Virus record (IMG/VR): IMGVR_UViG_3300029219_000015
DNA from: a virus
Lineage: Duplodnaviria; Heunggongvirae; Uroviricota; Caudoviricetes
Direction: 5' to 3' (one strand)
DNA length: 36,605 bases
The translations under genes and the position numbers were made by a program. This document shows positions 1 to 3,867 of this stretch, piece by piece. Numbering within the stretch: position 1 is the first letter of the stretch; every line of letters begins with the position of its first letter. A model generated the notes under the pieces. The model made no database searches. It had not been told where the DNA came from and saw nothing but the letters and a program-made list of their open reading frames with translations.

Positions 1-90
1 GGGGGAACTGAGAGAACTAAATTTCAATTTAAACAATGAATTAACTTCTTAGCGTACGTTTTCGTTCCATTGGCCCTCAAACCCCATTTA

Positions 91-177
91 GGGGAGTTAG
101 TCCGTAGAGGTAGCGGTGTAGACTGTAAATCTACTGTCATGGCGACTCGGGTGGTTCGACTCCATCACTCCCCACCA
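91..177 (+). tRNA. tRNA-Tyr (anticodon GTA), long variable arm, CCA encoded
   Basis: Acceptor stem GGGGAGT/ACTCCCC; anticodon stem GTAGA/TCTAC with loop CTGTAAA; about 15-nt variable arm; T-loop TTCGACT; 3' A-CCA. Confidence 0.8.
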
Positions 178-181
178 AATT

Positions 182-257
182 GCCGGTTTAGCTCAGTTGG
201 TAGAGCAGTCGCTTTGTAAGCGAATGGCCAGCGGTTCAAGTCCGTTAACCGGCACCA
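182..257 (+). tRNA. tRNA-Thr (anticodon TGT), CCA encoded
   Basis: Acceptor stem GCCGGTT/AACCGGC; D-arm GCTC-AGTTGGTA-GAGC; anticodon loop TTTGTAA; T-arm AGCGG-TTCAAGT-CCGTT; 3' A-CCA. Anticodon stem has one mismatch. Confidence 0.7.
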
Positions 258-577
258 ACACAACAGGTAAGAGCATTGGGCGAATCGGCGATACTGACCC
301 ACAAGGCCGTAAATCGATAGAGTCAGACCAGTGCTCTTACCGTTGTGAGGAAGTGCAGCTCTTTGAAGCAACCAGAAGATAAGCATCTGGCTTCACAACA
401 CAACGATAATATCATTACGGTTAATCGTCGTTCATGTGCACAATGACTGGTCGAAAGGTAGTGATCTTACCGTTGTGATGAATGCACAGGCTGATGTGCC
501 GCAACTACAGTAGTGCGCGCTTTGCGGGGCTTGCTACAACCCTGTGTCGGAGTTCAGTACCGACCATCACAATAGCT

Positions 578-664
578 GGAGAGTAGGGAGCATGGTGCTC
601 AAGCGGTCTTGAAAACCGTCCCATTGTGCAAACGATGATGGTTCGATTCCATTACTCTCCGCCA
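578..664 (+). tRNA. tRNA-Ser (anticodon TGA), long variable arm, CCA encoded
   Basis: Acceptor stem GGAGAGT/ACTCTCC; anticodon stem GCGGT/ACCGT with loop CTTGAAA; long variable arm; T-loop TTCGATT; discriminator G then CCA. Confidence 0.8.
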
Positions 665-666
665 GA

Positions 667-744
667 CACAGCGTTGAGCGGTTTGGCCTTTTAATCAACT
701 CGATTAAGACTCCGCTAACATAAACCAGACCGCTCAACGCTGTG
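667..744. repeat. Perfect 16-bp inverted repeat (CACAGCGTTGAGCGGT / ACCGCTCAACGCTGTG) around a 46-nt loop that itself contains TTAATC-AACTC-GATTAA
   Basis: Read directly from sequence immediately 3' of tRNA-Ser; possible processed stable RNA or structured element. Confidence 0.6.
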
Positions 745-823
745 ATAGACAATTACGGCAGACGTTCTTAACCATATAGCTTGCTAACATCCTAGCAACA
801 CTTTTTTAAGCGCAAAATCCAAA

Positions 824-843
824 GGGGCTTCGGCCCCTTTTTT
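824..843. terminator. Rho-independent terminator, usable in both directions
   Basis: GGGGC-TTCG-GCCCC followed by TTTTTT; an A-run precedes it on the + strand; sits between the tRNA cluster and the end of the minus-strand gene 845..1753. Confidence 0.75.
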
Positions 844-844
844 G

Positions 845-1753
845 TTAATGATTGCCTAGATATGATTTTAGTTCTTCTTTAATGATTAGTGAGTATTCTA
901 AAATATCACTTAGTAAAAATTTTGCTCTGTTAAAATACCCACCAAAAGAACCTAAAATTTCAGATGGTCTTTCTAAGAGCATCACAATATCATCTTCTTG
1001 CACTTTAGTAATGTAACTTCTAACAGCTCTTTCTCCAATAACTCTTTTCTTACCGTTTATTTCAGATTCATCTAAAACCTTATTTATAAATTTTTCTGTA
1101 TCATTGAATCGTCCACTATTGTGTACTATTGTATGTCTTAGTAGTTCAATTAGCTTGATGTTAAAGCGATAGTTTTTGCCAATCTTGTTGTTTGTTTCTA
1201 TCTCTTTGAAGCCAGGTATTTTATTTCTGAAAATTTTAGTTATTTTTTTCGATGGGTTACTTTTTGCTTTTAATAATCTGTAATAAACTTCCCTTTTCCC
1301 AATTTCATCATCTTCAACCTTACCAAAATCACTTGAGGACCATAAATCATTTCGAACACATACAGTATAGACATATATTGCCTCAATATAGTCTTCCAGT
1401 AACTCATAGGCTTCAGTAATAACCCACTGATATTGTTTATTTTTCAAAGTATTACACAATCTTATCTTTTCTTCTAAATCAATGGCGCTGTTACCTATCT
1501 CTAATGTTGAACCTGTATATGGGTTTGAACATAAATGGCGAGCTAACGTTGTGCCACACTTAATCTTAATAGTTTCATTAATATTAATAATAGTATCTGG
1601 ATTCTGTGCATACTCCACTTCTTTAAGAAGACGTTTTATATTTTTCTTTGTTGTATCATTTATCTGATTTAAATAATCAAAAAGTAAAGATATTTCTTCT
1701 CTAAATTCGTTGTATTTATTTTCAATCAAAGAATCAGACAACTTACCAATCAT
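845..1753 (-). CDS. Hypothetical protein on an AT-rich island; candidate HEPN/Abi-like defence protein (R-x4-H motif RHTIVH at about residues 206-211)
   Basis: 302-aa ORF with AGAGG 5 nt before the ATG; composition visibly far more AT-rich than flanks; K/E/I/N-rich; product assignment is inference from one short motif. Confidence 0.75.
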   Translation of the reverse strand: MIGKLSDSLIENKYNEFREEISLLFDYLNQINDTTKKNIKRLLKEVEYAQNPDTIININETIKIKCGTTLARHLCSNPYTGSTLEIGNSAIDLEEKIRLCNTLKNKQYQWVITEAYELLEDYIEAIYVYTVCVRNDLWSSSDFGKVEDDEIGKREVYYRLLKAKSNPSKKITKIFRNKIPGFKEIETNNKIGKNYRFNIKLIELLRHTIVHNSGRFNDTEKFINKVLDESEINGKKRVIGERAVRSYITKVQEDDIVMLLERPSEILGSFGGYFNRAKFLLSDILEYSLIIKEELKSYLGNH

Positions 1754-1926
1754 TAAAACCTCTATAAAATGTACATTTCAAGGCAATCCTTACTGTAATC
1801 TATTGTCGTAATCACTTCAATTGTTTACTAGTCAATCAATAAGTTACTACATACTTATCAAAAAAATCTGTTTGTAGTATAGTCTGATATGTTCGAATCA
1901 ATATTTATAAAGGTATTTGTTAAGTT

Positions 1927-2172
1927 ATGACGATCACTATCTACGGACGAGATAACTGCTCATACTGCAAACGTGCGGTCGAGCTGGCGAAGCAACTAAA
2001 GGGACATGGCAACGGTGATTATGAGTACATCGACATCACCACTGCCGGTATCGACAAGGAAAAACTAAGTGAAATTGTTGGTAAACCGGTAGAGACTATC
2101 CCCCAGGTGCTGATCGATGGCCAGCCGATTGGCGGATACACAGAACTGGCTGCATACGTCAGCACCCTCTGA
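1927..2172 (+). CDS. Glutaredoxin-like small redox protein (CSYC active site)
   Basis: 81 aa; N-terminal CxxC (CSYC) in a glutaredoxin-like context, C-terminal GGY motif; followed by a terminator. Confidence 0.8.
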   Translation: MTITIYGRDNCSYCKRAVELAKQLKGHGNGDYEYIDITTAGIDKEKLSEIVGKPVETIPQVLIDGQPIGGYTELAAYVSTL

Positions 2173-2178
2173 TTTTAA

Positions 2179-2199
2179 CGGCTCACAGGAGCCGTTTTT
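2179..2199 (+). terminator. Rho-independent terminator
   Basis: CGGCTC-ACAG-GAGCCG followed by TTTTT, 7 nt after the glutaredoxin stop. Confidence 0.7.
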
Positions 2200-2254
2200 A
2201 TTCCCACCAAACTCACTCCCATTTCCCTTAAAATTCAAAAAACAACGTCAAAAT

Positions 2255-2281
2255 GATTCCATACCTACTATGTATGGAATC
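2255..2281. promoter_or_regulatory. Perfect 10-bp inverted repeat GATTCCATAC-(7 nt)-GTATGGAATC; candidate recombinase core site or operator
   Basis: Read directly; about 100 bp upstream of the tyrosine-recombinase-like gene; geometry resembles tyrosine recombinase core sites. Confidence 0.35.
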
Positions 2282-2382
2282 ATTGCTGAAAATGAGTTAC
2301 TTTTACTCTTGATCCTATAAGAATCTATGCCTAATATACTGTTTACTTATACAGTGCATCGGCGTAACTCGGTGATTGTCAT

Positions 2383-3486
2383 ATGAAAAATAGCTTTGAC
2401 AGCGCACGCGCTGCGGAGAACACCTCAAAAGAGGCGATAGAGTATCTCGAAAGAGCATCTCAAATGCAGGCCGTTATGATCTCCCAGGTCAGCAATGACA
2501 TGAGATTCTCGGACGCATTCATGTTATTCACTCGCTTATCTCTGCTGATAACCAGACGTCGGCCAGAGATCGCTGTTCATTGTATTTTGATACATGTTTT
2601 GCCGCACATTGCCGATGTAAAAGTAAGTGACATTAATAGGTTCATGGTGAACCAACTGGTCAACCCACTAATACTGGATGGCAAAATTGTTATGGGCCGC
2701 CGCGTTTTCTCTCTGATGAAGCAGTTCCTTAGCTGGTGCGCCTTCCAGGGGATGATAGACGTGTCACCGTTAAACGATATGTCACTTAACAAAGTTGCCG
2801 GTGGCGCAAAGCCCACACCTCGCGAGCGGAAGCTGACCGACGCAGAGGTATGGGTGTTCTGGAATATATGGGACTACTTCAATGTGTGTGCTGGTACAAA
2901 ATGGGCGGCCAGGCTATGTCTTGTATCCGCAAGACGACCTGACGAAGTACTGCGGGCTAAAAAAAGTGAGTTCAATCTTAAGCGTGGGGTTTGGAATCAA
3001 GGCAAGAGGAACAAATCTGCCCGTGAGCATTCTCTGCCTTTAAGCTCATTAATGCGCACTTGTATTGAAGAGTTGTTCGAATATGGTAAAGACAGCCAGT
3101 GGCTCGTGCCTTCGAATAAAAAAATCGGGAAAGACCTTCCTATGTCTAAAGTGGCAATAGCCCAGGCATTACGTCGTATTCTGGAACGACCAGAACTGAT
3201 GGAGCTTGAGCCATTTACACCCCGAGATTTGCGCCGTACTGCGCGTAGTTACTTCCCAGCATTAGGCATAAGCCAGGAGGTATCACGTAAAATCATGAAC
3301 CACAGTCTTGAGGGGATAGATCGGGTCTACGACCGGCACGATTATATGGACGAGATGCGAGACGCCTTAGAAAGTTTCTCGACGTACATCGCATCAATCG
3401 TAGAGCAACCGGATTTAGACGAAATTGACCACAAATTTAAGGGAGATCGTCTATCAACAGAGCTTATTCGTGTAAATTTTTCATAG
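2383..3486 (+). CDS. Tyrosine recombinase/integrase-like protein, P4-integrase-type C-terminus, apparently lacking an N-terminal arm-binding domain
   Basis: C-terminal motifs ARRPDEV...HSLPLS...FTPRDLRRT...NHSLEGIDRVYDRHDY match the R/K/H-x-x-R/Y pattern of tyrosine recombinases; the box II position that I recall as His is Arg here. Start codon uncertain. Confidence 0.7.
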   Translation: MKNSFDSARAAENTSKEAIEYLERASQMQAVMISQVSNDMRFSDAFMLFTRLSLLITRRRPEIAVHCILIHVLPHIADVKVSDINRFMVNQLVNPLILDGKIVMGRRVFSLMKQFLSWCAFQGMIDVSPLNDMSLNKVAGGAKPTPRERKLTDAEVWVFWNIWDYFNVCAGTKWAARLCLVSARRPDEVLRAKKSEFNLKRGVWNQGKRNKSAREHSLPLSSLMRTCIEELFEYGKDSQWLVPSNKKIGKDLPMSKVAIAQALRRILERPELMELEPFTPRDLRRTARSYFPALGISQEVSRKIMNHSLEGIDRVYDRHDYMDEMRDALESFSTYIASIVEQPDLDEIDHKFKGDRLSTELIRVNFS

Positions 3487-3867
3487 AGACTTTATGGCCT
3501 CAACAACCTTTTGTGATGCGCCTTTCTCTTTACCGAATCGCTCGTTATATGCAGCAAGAACCTGTTTTTCGTCCTCGTTAAGAGGAGCAGTGCCTTCTTT
3601 GTATAAAAATGCTGCGAGTTCGGGTTGGCGTTCTTCCAGCACCATCATCATAAGACGACTTGGCTCAATGCCCAGTGCCAGCGCCAGCGGACGAACCTTA
3701 TCGATAGGCAAAGGAATTTTGCCGCTTTTAATTAAAGAAAGGTTGTTGGCGTTTTTATACCCAATTGTTTTGGCTATCTGGGCCTGGCTCATAGGTGAGG
3801 ATTCAATCAACCCTGCGATAAAAGCAGCGTAGCGACTTTCTATAAATTCAATCTTGTTATCAGACAT
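3481..3867 (-). CDS. Helix-turn-helix (XRE/Cro-CI-like) DNA-binding protein
   Basis: 128 aa; HTH-like segment SQAQIAKTIGYKNANNLSLIKSG; AAAGG 8 nt before the ATG; convergent with and overlapping the recombinase-like gene by 6 nt. Confidence 0.7.
   Translation of the reverse strand: MSDNKIEFIESRYAAFIAGLIESSPMSQAQIAKTIGYKNANNLSLIKSGKIPLPIDKVRPLALALGIEPSRLMMMVLEERQPELAAFLYKEGTAPLNEDEKQVLAAYNERFGKEKGASQKVVEAIKSL

What the first reader, a model, noticed from the sequence alone, without database searches (positions are those of the whole stretch)
845..1926. Sharply AT-rich single-gene island beside the tRNA cluster encoding a possible HEPN/Abi-like protein
The 845-1926 segment is visibly much more AT-rich than both flanks and holds one minus-strand gene (302 aa, K/E/I/N-rich) bracketed by a bidirectional terminator and an AT-rich divergent promoter region. 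This looks like a recently acquired moron. The protein has an R-x4-H motif (RHTIVH, about residues 206-211) of the type that forms HEPN RNase active sites in abortive-infection proteins. It could be a defence, anti-defence or phage-exclusion gene.
Basis: partly seen in the sequence, partly recalled or inferred. Interest (0 to 1): 0.7.

Follow-up and report, generated by a model that had tools for sequence, protein, structure and literature searches.

The report
Solo HEPN-like gene in phage-plasmid hotspot
An AT-rich, self-contained gene cassette sits beside the tRNA genes of an E. coli phage-plasmid and encodes the first examined member of an unannotated protein family that looks like a stand-alone HEPN RNase, so it is a good but untested candidate for a single-gene phage-exclusion system.

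Summary
Window 845-1926 has 28.7% GC against 46.5% ± 2.5% elsewhere (z = -7). It holds one minus-strand gene of 302 aa (845-1753), and RHTIVH lies at residues 206-211. The window is an SSU5-like phage-plasmid of E. coli.

The segment is a cassette with sharp borders, running from the tRNA-operon terminator to the glutaredoxin ATG. About 9% of related plasmids carry it, always in this slot. Its protein diverges far faster than the backbone (38-59% identity against 74-99%).

No Pfam, NCBIfam, PADLOC or PDB sequence match exists. A profile search found 453 cluster representatives of about 290-300 aa across many phyla. They are almost always AT-richer than their flanks, have no conserved partner gene, and often lie next to recombinases and defence genes.

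Best reading: a new family of solo HEPN-like RNase working in abortive infection, analogous to HepS. Membership in Abi_2/AbiD/AbiF is not supported. The function is untested.

The parts
578..664 (+). tRNA-Ser(TGA), the last gene of the phage-plasmid tRNA array. It is the conserved left flank of the slot.
   Evidence: ARAGORN. It is conserved in Cyrano and in Klebsiella phage-plasmids.
821..840 (.). G+C-rich hairpin AAAGGGGCTTCGGCCCCTTT followed by a T-run. It is the terminator of the tRNA array and probably also ends the convergent 302-aa gene. It forms the left border of the cassette.
   Evidence: Terminator scan. It is identical in relatives whether or not they carry the gene, and homology ends at about 844/845.
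845..1753 (-). CDS of 302 aa encoding a HEPN-like protein of an unannotated family (PHROG 35492, unknown function).
   Evidence: ORF list. PHROG match of 3e-211 with no function assigned. 453 family representatives. AF2 model with pLDDT 94 and pTM 0.90.
1121..1138 (-). Codons for R206-H-T-I-V-H211, the candidate HEPN R-x4-H catalytic motif.
   Evidence: Direct translation. R206 and H211 are invariant, and H207, V210 and G214 are at least 90% conserved, in 98 homologs. The motif lies at the C-terminal end of helix 195-212.
1403..1405 (-). Codon for the invariant E117, inside the block KNKQYQWxxxEAYExxED of helix 93-133. It is the candidate second (acidic) active-site residue.
   Evidence: Alignment A2 and secondary structure of the model.
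1754..1926 (.). AT-rich (26% GC) upstream spacer that belongs to the cassette. It has the RBS GAGG at 1759-1762 (minus strand) and weak promoter-like hexamers. It holds no conserved small ORF and no significant RNA structure.
   Evidence: fold z = -1.8. The spacer is homologous but about 70% identical in the 59% allele, and it is absent from Cyrano. Homology to all relatives resumes exactly at the grx ATG.
1927..2172 (+). GrxA-type glutaredoxin gene, the conserved right flank of the slot.
   Evidence: Pfam PF00462 at 9e-11. Annotated in relatives.

Best explanation
The segment is a mobile single-gene cassette. It consists of the gene, its own AT-rich upstream region and a shared terminator, and it sits in the variable slot just downstream of the tRNA array of an SSU5-like phage-plasmid. 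Its product founds an unannotated family of about 300-aa proteins built around a divergent HEPN-type helical bundle.

Proposed mechanism (inferred):
- The protein is made from its own promoter while the element resides as a plasmid.
- It is held inactive as an oligomer, without a partner protein.
- A component of a superinfecting phage switches it on.
- The R206/H207/H211 motif, together with E117, then cuts RNA without a metal ion. By analogy the target is most likely tRNA anticodon loops or mRNA.
- Translation stops and the infection aborts, which protects the clonal host population and the resident element.

Shown here: the cassette structure, its variable presence, the family and its conserved residues, the fold resemblance, the absence of a partner gene, and the mobile-element and defence neighbourhood.

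Inferred only: RNase activity, the substrate, the trigger and the phenotype.
For: 1. Cassette. Borders are sharp at 844/845 and 1926/1927. The family is present in 58 of about 630 related plasmids and in 19 of 5426 complete E. coli genomes, always on plasmids of about 110 kb. The gene runs antisense to the surrounding + strand operons.

2. Conflict-gene style evolution. The protein is 38.5% identical between the window and a Klebsiella phage-plasmid, while Grx is 74% and integrase 79%. Against a second E. coli allele it is 58.6%, while Grx is 98.8%.

3. A real, constrained family. There are 453 representatives at E <= 1e-3 and 142 at <= 1e-30, nearly all 285-310 aa. E117, R206 and H211 are invariant.

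4. HEPN features as defined in PMC3710099.
- R-x4-H with a polar residue (H) after the R.
- The motif lies at the end of a helix and is followed by a loop.
- An invariant acidic residue lies in the preceding long helix.
- A 60-residue insert separates the two helices.

6. Weak sequence signals. Sub-threshold hits of family members fall on HEPN models: DUF3644 (3 members), HEPN_Apea, HEPN_RnaseLS and Csx1/Csm6 (2 members). The single best hhalign segment against HepT/DUF86 aligns LRHxIVH with MRNAIIH.

7. No partner. No conserved neighbouring gene was found in about 45 independent loci.

8. Neighbourhood. Neighbours include 7 serine recombinases, 3 integrases, phage genes, type IIG and type I R-M, MADS, PD-T7-5, PDC-S13/S15, Avs4, AbiEi, ToxN and nSTAND NTPases.

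9. Composition. The gene is AT-richer than its flanks in nearly all loci.

10. Circumstantial phenotype. Curing K. pneumoniae Kp1604 of plasmid p2 (CP085480/OK644452) raised the plating efficiency of three lytic phages 10-100-fold (PMC8969562). That plasmid carries the Klebsiella homolog (H101/H102).

Against: - No profile method gives a significant link to any HEPN family. Pfam, NCBIfam and PADLOC returned nothing for the window protein. The PDB profile search found nothing relevant. hhalign against HepT gave P = 0.066 over 8 columns.
- Foldseek against the PDB returned only generic helical bundles with E > 0.03.
- I could not superpose coordinates, so the spatial proximity of E117, R206 and H211 is unverified.
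- The acidic residue is not in the usual E-x3-[KR] context.
- H207-x3-H211 plus E117 could instead be a metal site.
- No strong promoter was found.
- The Kp1604 phenotype was attributed by its authors to an R-M system, and it concerns a plasmid of about 110 genes.
- No experiment addresses this gene.
Confidence: 0.45

Rival explanations
1. The fold is a generic helical bundle and the protein is not a HEPN RNase. The invariant E117, H207 and H211 could form a metal-binding or other catalytic or regulatory site, and the biochemical function is something else.
Confidence: 0.2
2. It is the toxin of an addiction or toxin-antitoxin module that stabilises the phage-plasmid. Its antitoxin would be unrecognised, for example an RNA from the upstream spacer as in some AbiF loci, or a gene located elsewhere.
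For: Many HEPN proteins are TA toxins (HepT/MntA; annotations). Phage-plasmids need maintenance functions, and relatives carry a YafO TA pair 1 kb away. A phage AbiF regulated by RNA is known (PMC12373285, listed).
Against: No conserved neighbouring gene was found in about 45 loci. The spacer has no conserved small ORF, no repeats and no significant structure. The spacer is no better conserved than the coding region between alleles. About 91% of related plasmids do without the gene. Family members also sit in chromosomes.
Confidence: 0.12
3. It serves the phage-plasmid's own lytic cycle or acts as counter-defence. For example, it could be an RNase that shuts off host or competitor transcripts or destroys a host immune RNA, rather than host-protective abortive infection.
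For: It is phage-borne and lies next to nucleotide-metabolism and tRNA genes. Phage-encoded tRNAs are linked to tRNA-targeting conflicts (PMC12409363 abstract).
Against: Most family members are in bacterial chromosomes or islands next to recombinases and defence genes, not in phage early operons. The gene is antisense to the phage operons and has its own control region. At about 300 aa with strong cross-phylum conservation, it is unlike typical small anti-defence proteins.
Confidence: 0.12

Closest known systems
HepS (STM14_3211) of Salmonella prophage Gifsy-1: 'HEPN solo' abortive-infection protein (PMC13043305)
   Different: There is no detectable sequence similarity. The protein here is 302 aa against 218 aa. 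It has an N-terminal 50-residue helix, two beta-hairpins and a 60-residue insert. Its trigger, oligomeric state, substrate and phenotype are unknown. HepS is a tetramer activated by siphovirus tail-tip protein J, and it cleaves tRNA-Thr, tRNA-Ile and tRNA-Ser anticodon loops.
HepT (DUF86, PF01934) and HEPN (PF05168, e.g. [quoted passage not shown]
   Different: The profile comparison is not significant (P = 0.066). No MNT nucleotidyltransferase antitoxin is adjacent. The H-x-Y extension is absent. The protein is twice the size.
Abi_2 / AbiD / AbiD1 / AbiF (PF07751) lactococcal-type abortive-infection proteins
   Same: Both are single-gene systems of similar length (about 300-350 aa) with a predicted HEPN core, carried on mobile elements.
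   Different: No Pfam or PADLOC match was found, even at E = 1-10 for the window protein and E = 0.1 for 98 relatives. The protein cannot be filed as a member.
PrrC / RloC anticodon nucleases and RnlA/LsoA (RNase LS)
   Same: These are HEPN RNases used in phage exclusion with R-x4-6-H active sites (PMC3710099). One family member gives a marginal HEPN_RnaseLS hit (E = 0.033).
   Different: Those proteins carry ABC-ATPase or other regulatory domains, or dedicated antitoxins or R-M partners. None of these is present here.

Membership tests
HEPN superfamily (Anantharaman et al. 2013, PMC3710099) | Conserved R-x4-6-H motif, typically with N, D or H immediately after the R | tested here: met
   R206 and H211 are invariant and H207 is at least 90% conserved across 98 homologs of 16-60% identity.
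HEPN superfamily (Anantharaman et al. 2013, PMC3710099) | Motif located at the end of core helix 3 and the start of the following loop | tested here: met
   In the pLDDT-94 model, R206-H211 lie at the C-terminal end of helix 195-212. A loop follows at 213-218, then helix 219-229.
HEPN superfamily (Anantharaman et al. 2013, PMC3710099) | [quoted passage not shown] | tested here: inconclusive
   The invariant E117 lies in helix 93-133 and is followed by an insert of about 60 residues (134-194). The context is E-x2-E-D, not E-x3-[KR]. Its 3-D proximity to the motif could not be measured because no coordinates are available.
HEPN superfamily (Anantharaman et al. 2013, PMC3710099) | Four-helix up-down bundle fold similar to solved HEPN domains | tested here: inconclusive
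HEPN superfamily (Anantharaman et al. 2013, PMC3710099) | Significant profile or profile-profile match to an established HEPN family | tested here: not met
   Pfam gave no hit for the window protein. Among 98 relatives there were only marginal hits: DUF3644 at 0.0065 (3 members), HEPN_Apea at 0.022 and HEPN_RnaseLS at 0.033. PADLOC Csx1/Csm6 gave 0.0033 for 2 members. hhalign against DUF86 gave P = 0.066. Only one HEPN family could be tested by hhalign.
HEPN superfamily (Anantharaman et al. 2013, PMC3710099) | Metal-independent RNase activity dependent on the R and H residues | not testable with these tools
   This needs biochemistry.
Abi_2 / AbiD / AbiF (PF07751) | Match to the Abi_2 profile | tested here: not met
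   There was no Pfam or PADLOC hit for the window protein, and Abi_2 is not among the families hit by 98 relatives.
[quoted passage not shown] | Adjacent MNT nucleotidyltransferase antitoxin and a DUF86 profile match | tested here: not met
   No conserved neighbour was found, and no NTP_transf family appears among recurrent neighbours. The DUF86 comparison is not significant.
Known anti-phage defence systems (PADLOC-DB v2.0.0) | Match to any defence-protein model | tested here: not met
   There were 0 families at E <= 10 for the window protein and only scattered marginal hits among 98 relatives.
Defence-island / mobile accessory gene (guilt by association) | Recurrent location next to defence and mobility genes, variable presence, atypical composition | tested here: met
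   Of 147 neighbours in about 45 loci, 7 are resolvases and 3 are integrases. Others include R-M IIG and type I, MADS, PD-T7-5, PDC-S13/S15, Avs4, AbiEi and ToxN. The gene is AT-richer than its flank in nearly all loci. It is present in about 9% of related plasmids. No formal enrichment statistic was computed.

The most novel reading that the evidence does not exclude
The gene is a new solo anticodon nuclease that is functionally coupled to the tRNA array beside it. In this reading the phage-plasmid carries both a tRNA-cutting abortive-infection enzyme and its own, possibly cleavage-resistant, tRNAs (Tyr, Thr, Ser). The resident element could then keep translating, or recover, when the nuclease fires against a competitor. 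That would be a 'toxin plus tRNA antidote' arrangement.

Hints:
- In every phage-plasmid that carries the family, the gene abuts the tRNA array.
- Unrelated members lie 360-525 nt from a tRNA-Ser in Pseudomonas and in Desulfocapsa.
- HepS targets include tRNA-Thr(TGT) and a tRNA-Ser.

Against:
- The tRNA array is present in relatives that lack the gene.
- Most family loci have no tRNA nearby.
- tRNA genes are ordinary island integration sites.
Probability: 0.06. Interest if true: 0.85.

Novelty: new variant of a known kind. Interest (0 to 1): 0.5.

Why it matters
If confirmed, this would add a widespread family (453 clusters at 50% identity, across several phyla) to the short list of single-protein HEPN abortive-infection systems that both sense and kill. 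No current annotation resource detects this family: it is absent from Pfam 2025, NCBIfam 2026 and PADLOC 2023.

It would also mark the slot downstream of the tRNA array in SSU5-like phage-plasmids as a defence hotspot. These elements are common in clinical E. coli and Klebsiella, so the gene could affect phage-therapy host range. The gene is small, has no partner and has clear catalytic-residue candidates, so it is cheap to test.

Tried and rejected
1. Direct family assignment. Pfam, NCBIfam, PADLOC and PDB sequence searches of the window protein gave nothing. PHROGs gave only its own unknown-function family, plus a marginal N-terminal coiled-coil hit to 'anti-restriction nuclease' (E = 0.0027), which I dismissed as low-complexity helix similarity.

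2. Profile search of the PDB with 98 sequences. It returned only CmlS halogenase (E = 0.012, a short NxxYxxAYExF...FW stretch) and SNAP-25 coiled coils. I judged both to be chance or motif-level matches.

3. NCBIfam hits of 7 relatives to TrmL (best 2e-5) and of 6 to CmlS. I fetched E. coli TrmL and compared it locally. The similarity is confined to a K/RGxPxSIL loop in the insert region and is not significant (E >= 0.27). The folds also differ, a SPOUT knot against a helical bundle, so I rejected homology.

4. Second homolog search with the 98-sequence profile, hoping for Pfam-annotated distant relatives. It returned 15 hits, none annotated.

5. hhalign against a HepT/DUF86 alignment built from a HepT gene found by chance in locus L017. 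Only the motif aligned, and the result was not significant.

6. Foldseek against the PDB gave no significant hit. The afdb50 library was unavailable.

7. Search for a partner gene, antitoxin ORF, repeats, Rfam family or structured RNA in or around the cassette. None was found.

8. Search for tRNA-derived direct repeats that would delimit a mini-island in Pseudomonas loci. None was found.

9. Literature search by protein accession WP_001755525 and by topic. No paper on this family was found.

10. The alternative gene in the same slot of an Enterobacter phage-plasmid (398 aa). It gave only a sub-threshold putAbiC hit and no PADLOC hit.

Full report
**1.

Window 845-1926 has 28.7% GC. All other 1082-bp windows of the 36.6-kb sequence average 46.5% (sd 2.5, minimum 41.2), so z = -7.1. 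The segment holds one ORF, 845..1753 on the minus strand, 302 aa, with GC3 of 0.22. The protein is rich in I, K, L, E and N. RHTIVH lies at residues 206-211, which is window 1121-1138.

Upstream on the + strand lie tRNA-Tyr (91-177), tRNA-Thr (182-257) and tRNA-Ser (578-664). A G+C-rich hairpin at 821-840 with a T-run is scored as a + strand terminator. On the minus strand the same stem is followed by a weaker U-tract, so 'bidirectional' is plausible but not fully supported.

The 173-bp spacer 1754-1926 (26% GC) carries a GAGG ribosome-binding site. Only weak promoter-like hexamers face the gene.

**2. Genomic setting**

The window is an SSU5-like phage-plasmid of E. coli. It is 94-98% identical to 'Escherichia phage CMS-2020a' and phage Cyrano, and to many non-mobilizable plasmids of about 110 kb.

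The genes to the right are a GrxA glutaredoxin (1927-2172), a tyrosine integrase (2383-3486) and an HTH repressor-like gene (3481-3867, minus strand). Almost all other long ORFs in the window are on the + strand. The 302-aa gene is therefore an antisense insert between two co-directional units.

**3. It is a cassette in a variable slot**

Alignment with relatives shows that homology stops exactly after the terminator T-run (844/845). It resumes exactly at the grx ATG (1927).
- Phage Cyrano has a Gp49-family gene in that place.
- An Enterobacter phage-plasmid has an unrelated 398-aa minus-strand gene there.

Of about 630 plasmids that match the flanks, 58 encode a homolog. One of those 58 is an unrelated Pseudomonas veronii plasmid. 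Among 5426 complete E. coli genomes, 19 carry this allele, always on a plasmid.

Homologs in a second E. coli allele group, in Citrobacter and in Klebsiella phage-plasmids occupy the same slot next to the tRNA array. They are only 59%, 43% and 38% identical. The adjacent Grx and integrase are 74-99% identical.

The slot gene therefore evolves, or is exchanged, much faster than the backbone. That is typical of conflict genes, and it qualifies the phrase 'recently acquired'. Occasional truncated or frameshifted copies exist.

**4. The protein family**

Single-sequence searches found only eight relatives and no annotation. A profile search of 1.84 billion representatives found 453 proteins at E <= 1e-3, and 142 at <= 1e-30. 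Nearly all are 285-310 aa.

Genome and virome scans place members in Pseudomonas, Lonsdalea, Oceanospirillum, Undibacterium, Sulfurimonas, Desulfobacterota, Bacteroidota, Treponema, Nitrospira and in IMG/VR prophage contigs.

In 98 aligned members of 16-60% identity, the conserved positions are:
- invariant: E117, R206 and H211;
- at least 90% conserved: N105, Q107, W110, Y116, Y127, W138, E186, N189, H207, V210 and G214.

The gene is AT-richer than its flanks in nearly every locus (typically by 0.05-0.20, up to 0.33). Low GC is therefore a family trait rather than only a sign of recent arrival.

**5. Fold and HEPN question**

With the 98-sequence alignment, AlphaFold2 gave pLDDT 94 and pTM 0.90. 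The model has these elements in order:
- a 50-residue N-terminal helix;
- a beta-hairpin (69-91);
- a long helix (93-133) carrying E117;
- a helical insert (134-194);
- a helix (195-212) ending in R206-H211;
- further helices, a second hairpin and a C-terminal helix (276-300).

Anantharaman et al. define HEPN by five features (PMC3710099). These are an R-x4-6-H motif, a polar N/D/H after the R, the motif at the end of helix 3, an acidic residue in helix 2, and frequent inserts between helices 2 and 3. The model and the alignment fit all of these, except that the acidic residue is not in an E-x3-[KR] context.

The negative results are:
- Foldseek against the PDB found nothing significant.
- Pfam and PADLOC scans of 98 members gave only marginal hits, though several fall on HEPN models: DUF3644, Apea, RnaseLS and Csx1/Csm6.
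- hhalign against a HepT/DUF86 alignment aligned only LRHxIVH with MRNAIIH (P = 0.066).

I put HEPN-superfamily membership at about 0.75. It rests on motif, topology and fold enrichment, not on profile statistics. Membership in Abi_2/AbiD/AbiF was tested and not met.

**6. Stand-alone, mobile, defence-associated**

In about 45 non-redundant loci no neighbouring gene is conserved. The cassette has no small conserved ORF, repeat array, Rfam match or significant RNA structure.

Among 147 genes within two positions of family members, the recurrent or notable ones are:
- 7 serine recombinases, four of them a convergent resolvase in Pseudomonas;
- 3 tyrosine integrases, plus P2 tail and BRO genes;
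- type IIG and type I R-M, MADS components, PD-T7-5, PDC-S13/S15, Avs4, AbiEi, ToxN and nSTAND NTPases.

This is the context expected of a defence-island gene, although I did not compute a formal enrichment.

There is one circumstantial phenotype. K. pneumoniae Kp1604 cured of its SSU5-like plasmid p2 became 10-100-fold more permissive to three lytic phages (PMC8969562). That plasmid (CP085480/OK644452) carries the Klebsiella homolog. The authors credited an R-M system, so this is weak evidence.

**7. Mechanism proposed**

The closest analogue is HepS, a solo prophage HEPN protein. It is constitutively made and inactive as a tetramer. A phage tail-tip protein opens it, and it then cleaves tRNA anticodon loops (PMC13043305).

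By analogy, the most likely reading is a self-contained sensor-effector RNase that aborts infection by competing phages. R206, H207, H211 and E117 would be the catalytic residues. The N-terminal helix, the hairpins or the insert would serve for oligomerisation and trigger sensing. All of these steps are inferred.

The rivals are a non-HEPN helical protein with a metal site, an addiction toxin with a hidden antitoxin, and a lytic-cycle or counter-defence RNase. None is excluded, but context disfavours each.

**8. Novelty and verdict**

The family is absent from Pfam (2025), NCBIfam (2026) and PADLOC (2023). It is 'unknown function' in PHROGs. I found no paper on it.

It is best described as a new variant of a known kind: solo HEPN-type abortive-infection candidates on temperate elements. 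A specialist would find it plausible rather than startling. Its value lies in being a large, undetected family with an easy experimental test.

Interest is 0.5. Confidence in the full mechanistic reading is about 0.45.

Noticed in passing
window 2173-2382: A second variable slot lies between grx and the integrase, and it is empty here (210 bp). Close relatives (pGD31-F25 and the Klebsiella, Citrobacter and Enterobacter phage-plasmids) carry a gene of about 201 aa plus a YafO-family toxin there. Phage Cyrano carries an unrelated 184-aa minus-strand gene.
   Followed up: partly
window 2252-2284: A near-perfect palindrome with 16-nt arms (AATGATTCCATACCTA / TATGTATGGAATCATT) lies about 100 bp upstream of the integrase start. 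It could be an operator or a recombination site.
   Followed up: no
window 667-744: A 20-nt inverted repeat, 95% complementary with a 38-nt loop, lies immediately after tRNA-Ser and upstream of the terminator hairpin. Its function is unknown.
   Followed up: no
window 1-664: The tRNA array differs between related phage-plasmids. Here it is Tyr(GTA), Thr(TGT), a 320-bp gap, then Ser(TGA). Cyrano has Asn-Thr-Ser, and the Klebsiella elements have Asn and Ser. The Tyr-Thr part is about 88% identical to the array of a P1-like phage (vB_EcoM-Ro157c2YLVW). This suggests exchange of tRNA modules between phage-plasmid groups.
   Followed up: partly
L031 4194-5681; L043 4303-5672; L027 1706-5909; L011 50-1404: Family members lie 360-525 nt downstream of a tRNA-Ser in Pseudomonas (Ser-CGA; 3.2 kb away in L027) and in a Desulfocapsa MAG (Ser-GCT). 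This echoes the tRNA-Ser(TGA) neighbour in the phage-plasmids. In four Pseudomonas loci (L027, L031, L042, L043) a 190-228-aa serine recombinase sits convergent just downstream; L042 has no tRNA within the locus. No tRNA-derived direct repeat was found. This is probably island integration at tRNA genes, but the repeated Ser identity is unexplained.
   Followed up: partly
L064 4068-5264 (Enterobacter hormaechei p1_020038): The same slot downstream of the tRNA terminator holds a different minus-strand gene of 398 aa. It has only a sub-threshold putAbiC (PF16872) hit (E = 0.0044) and no PADLOC hit. It is another uncharacterised candidate in the hotspot.
   Followed up: partly
family alignment A2, window residues about 165-176: A short conserved K/R-x-x-P-x-S-I-L-x3-R stretch in the insert gives repeated weak NCBIfam hits to the TrmL tRNA methyltransferase (7 of 98 members, best 2e-5). 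The N105-Y127 block resembles a stretch of the CmlS halogenase. Both were judged motif-level similarities, not homology.
   Followed up: yes
CP012114.1 42849-43752; proteins P0005 and P0006: Some copies of the gene are frameshifted or truncated to about 172 aa. This is consistent with occasional inactivation of a costly accessory gene.
   Followed up: no
L017 1980-2531: A HepT (DUF86) toxin gene lies about 2.3 kb upstream of the family member in Oceanospirillum linum. It was used as the seed for the HEPN reference alignment.
   Followed up: yes
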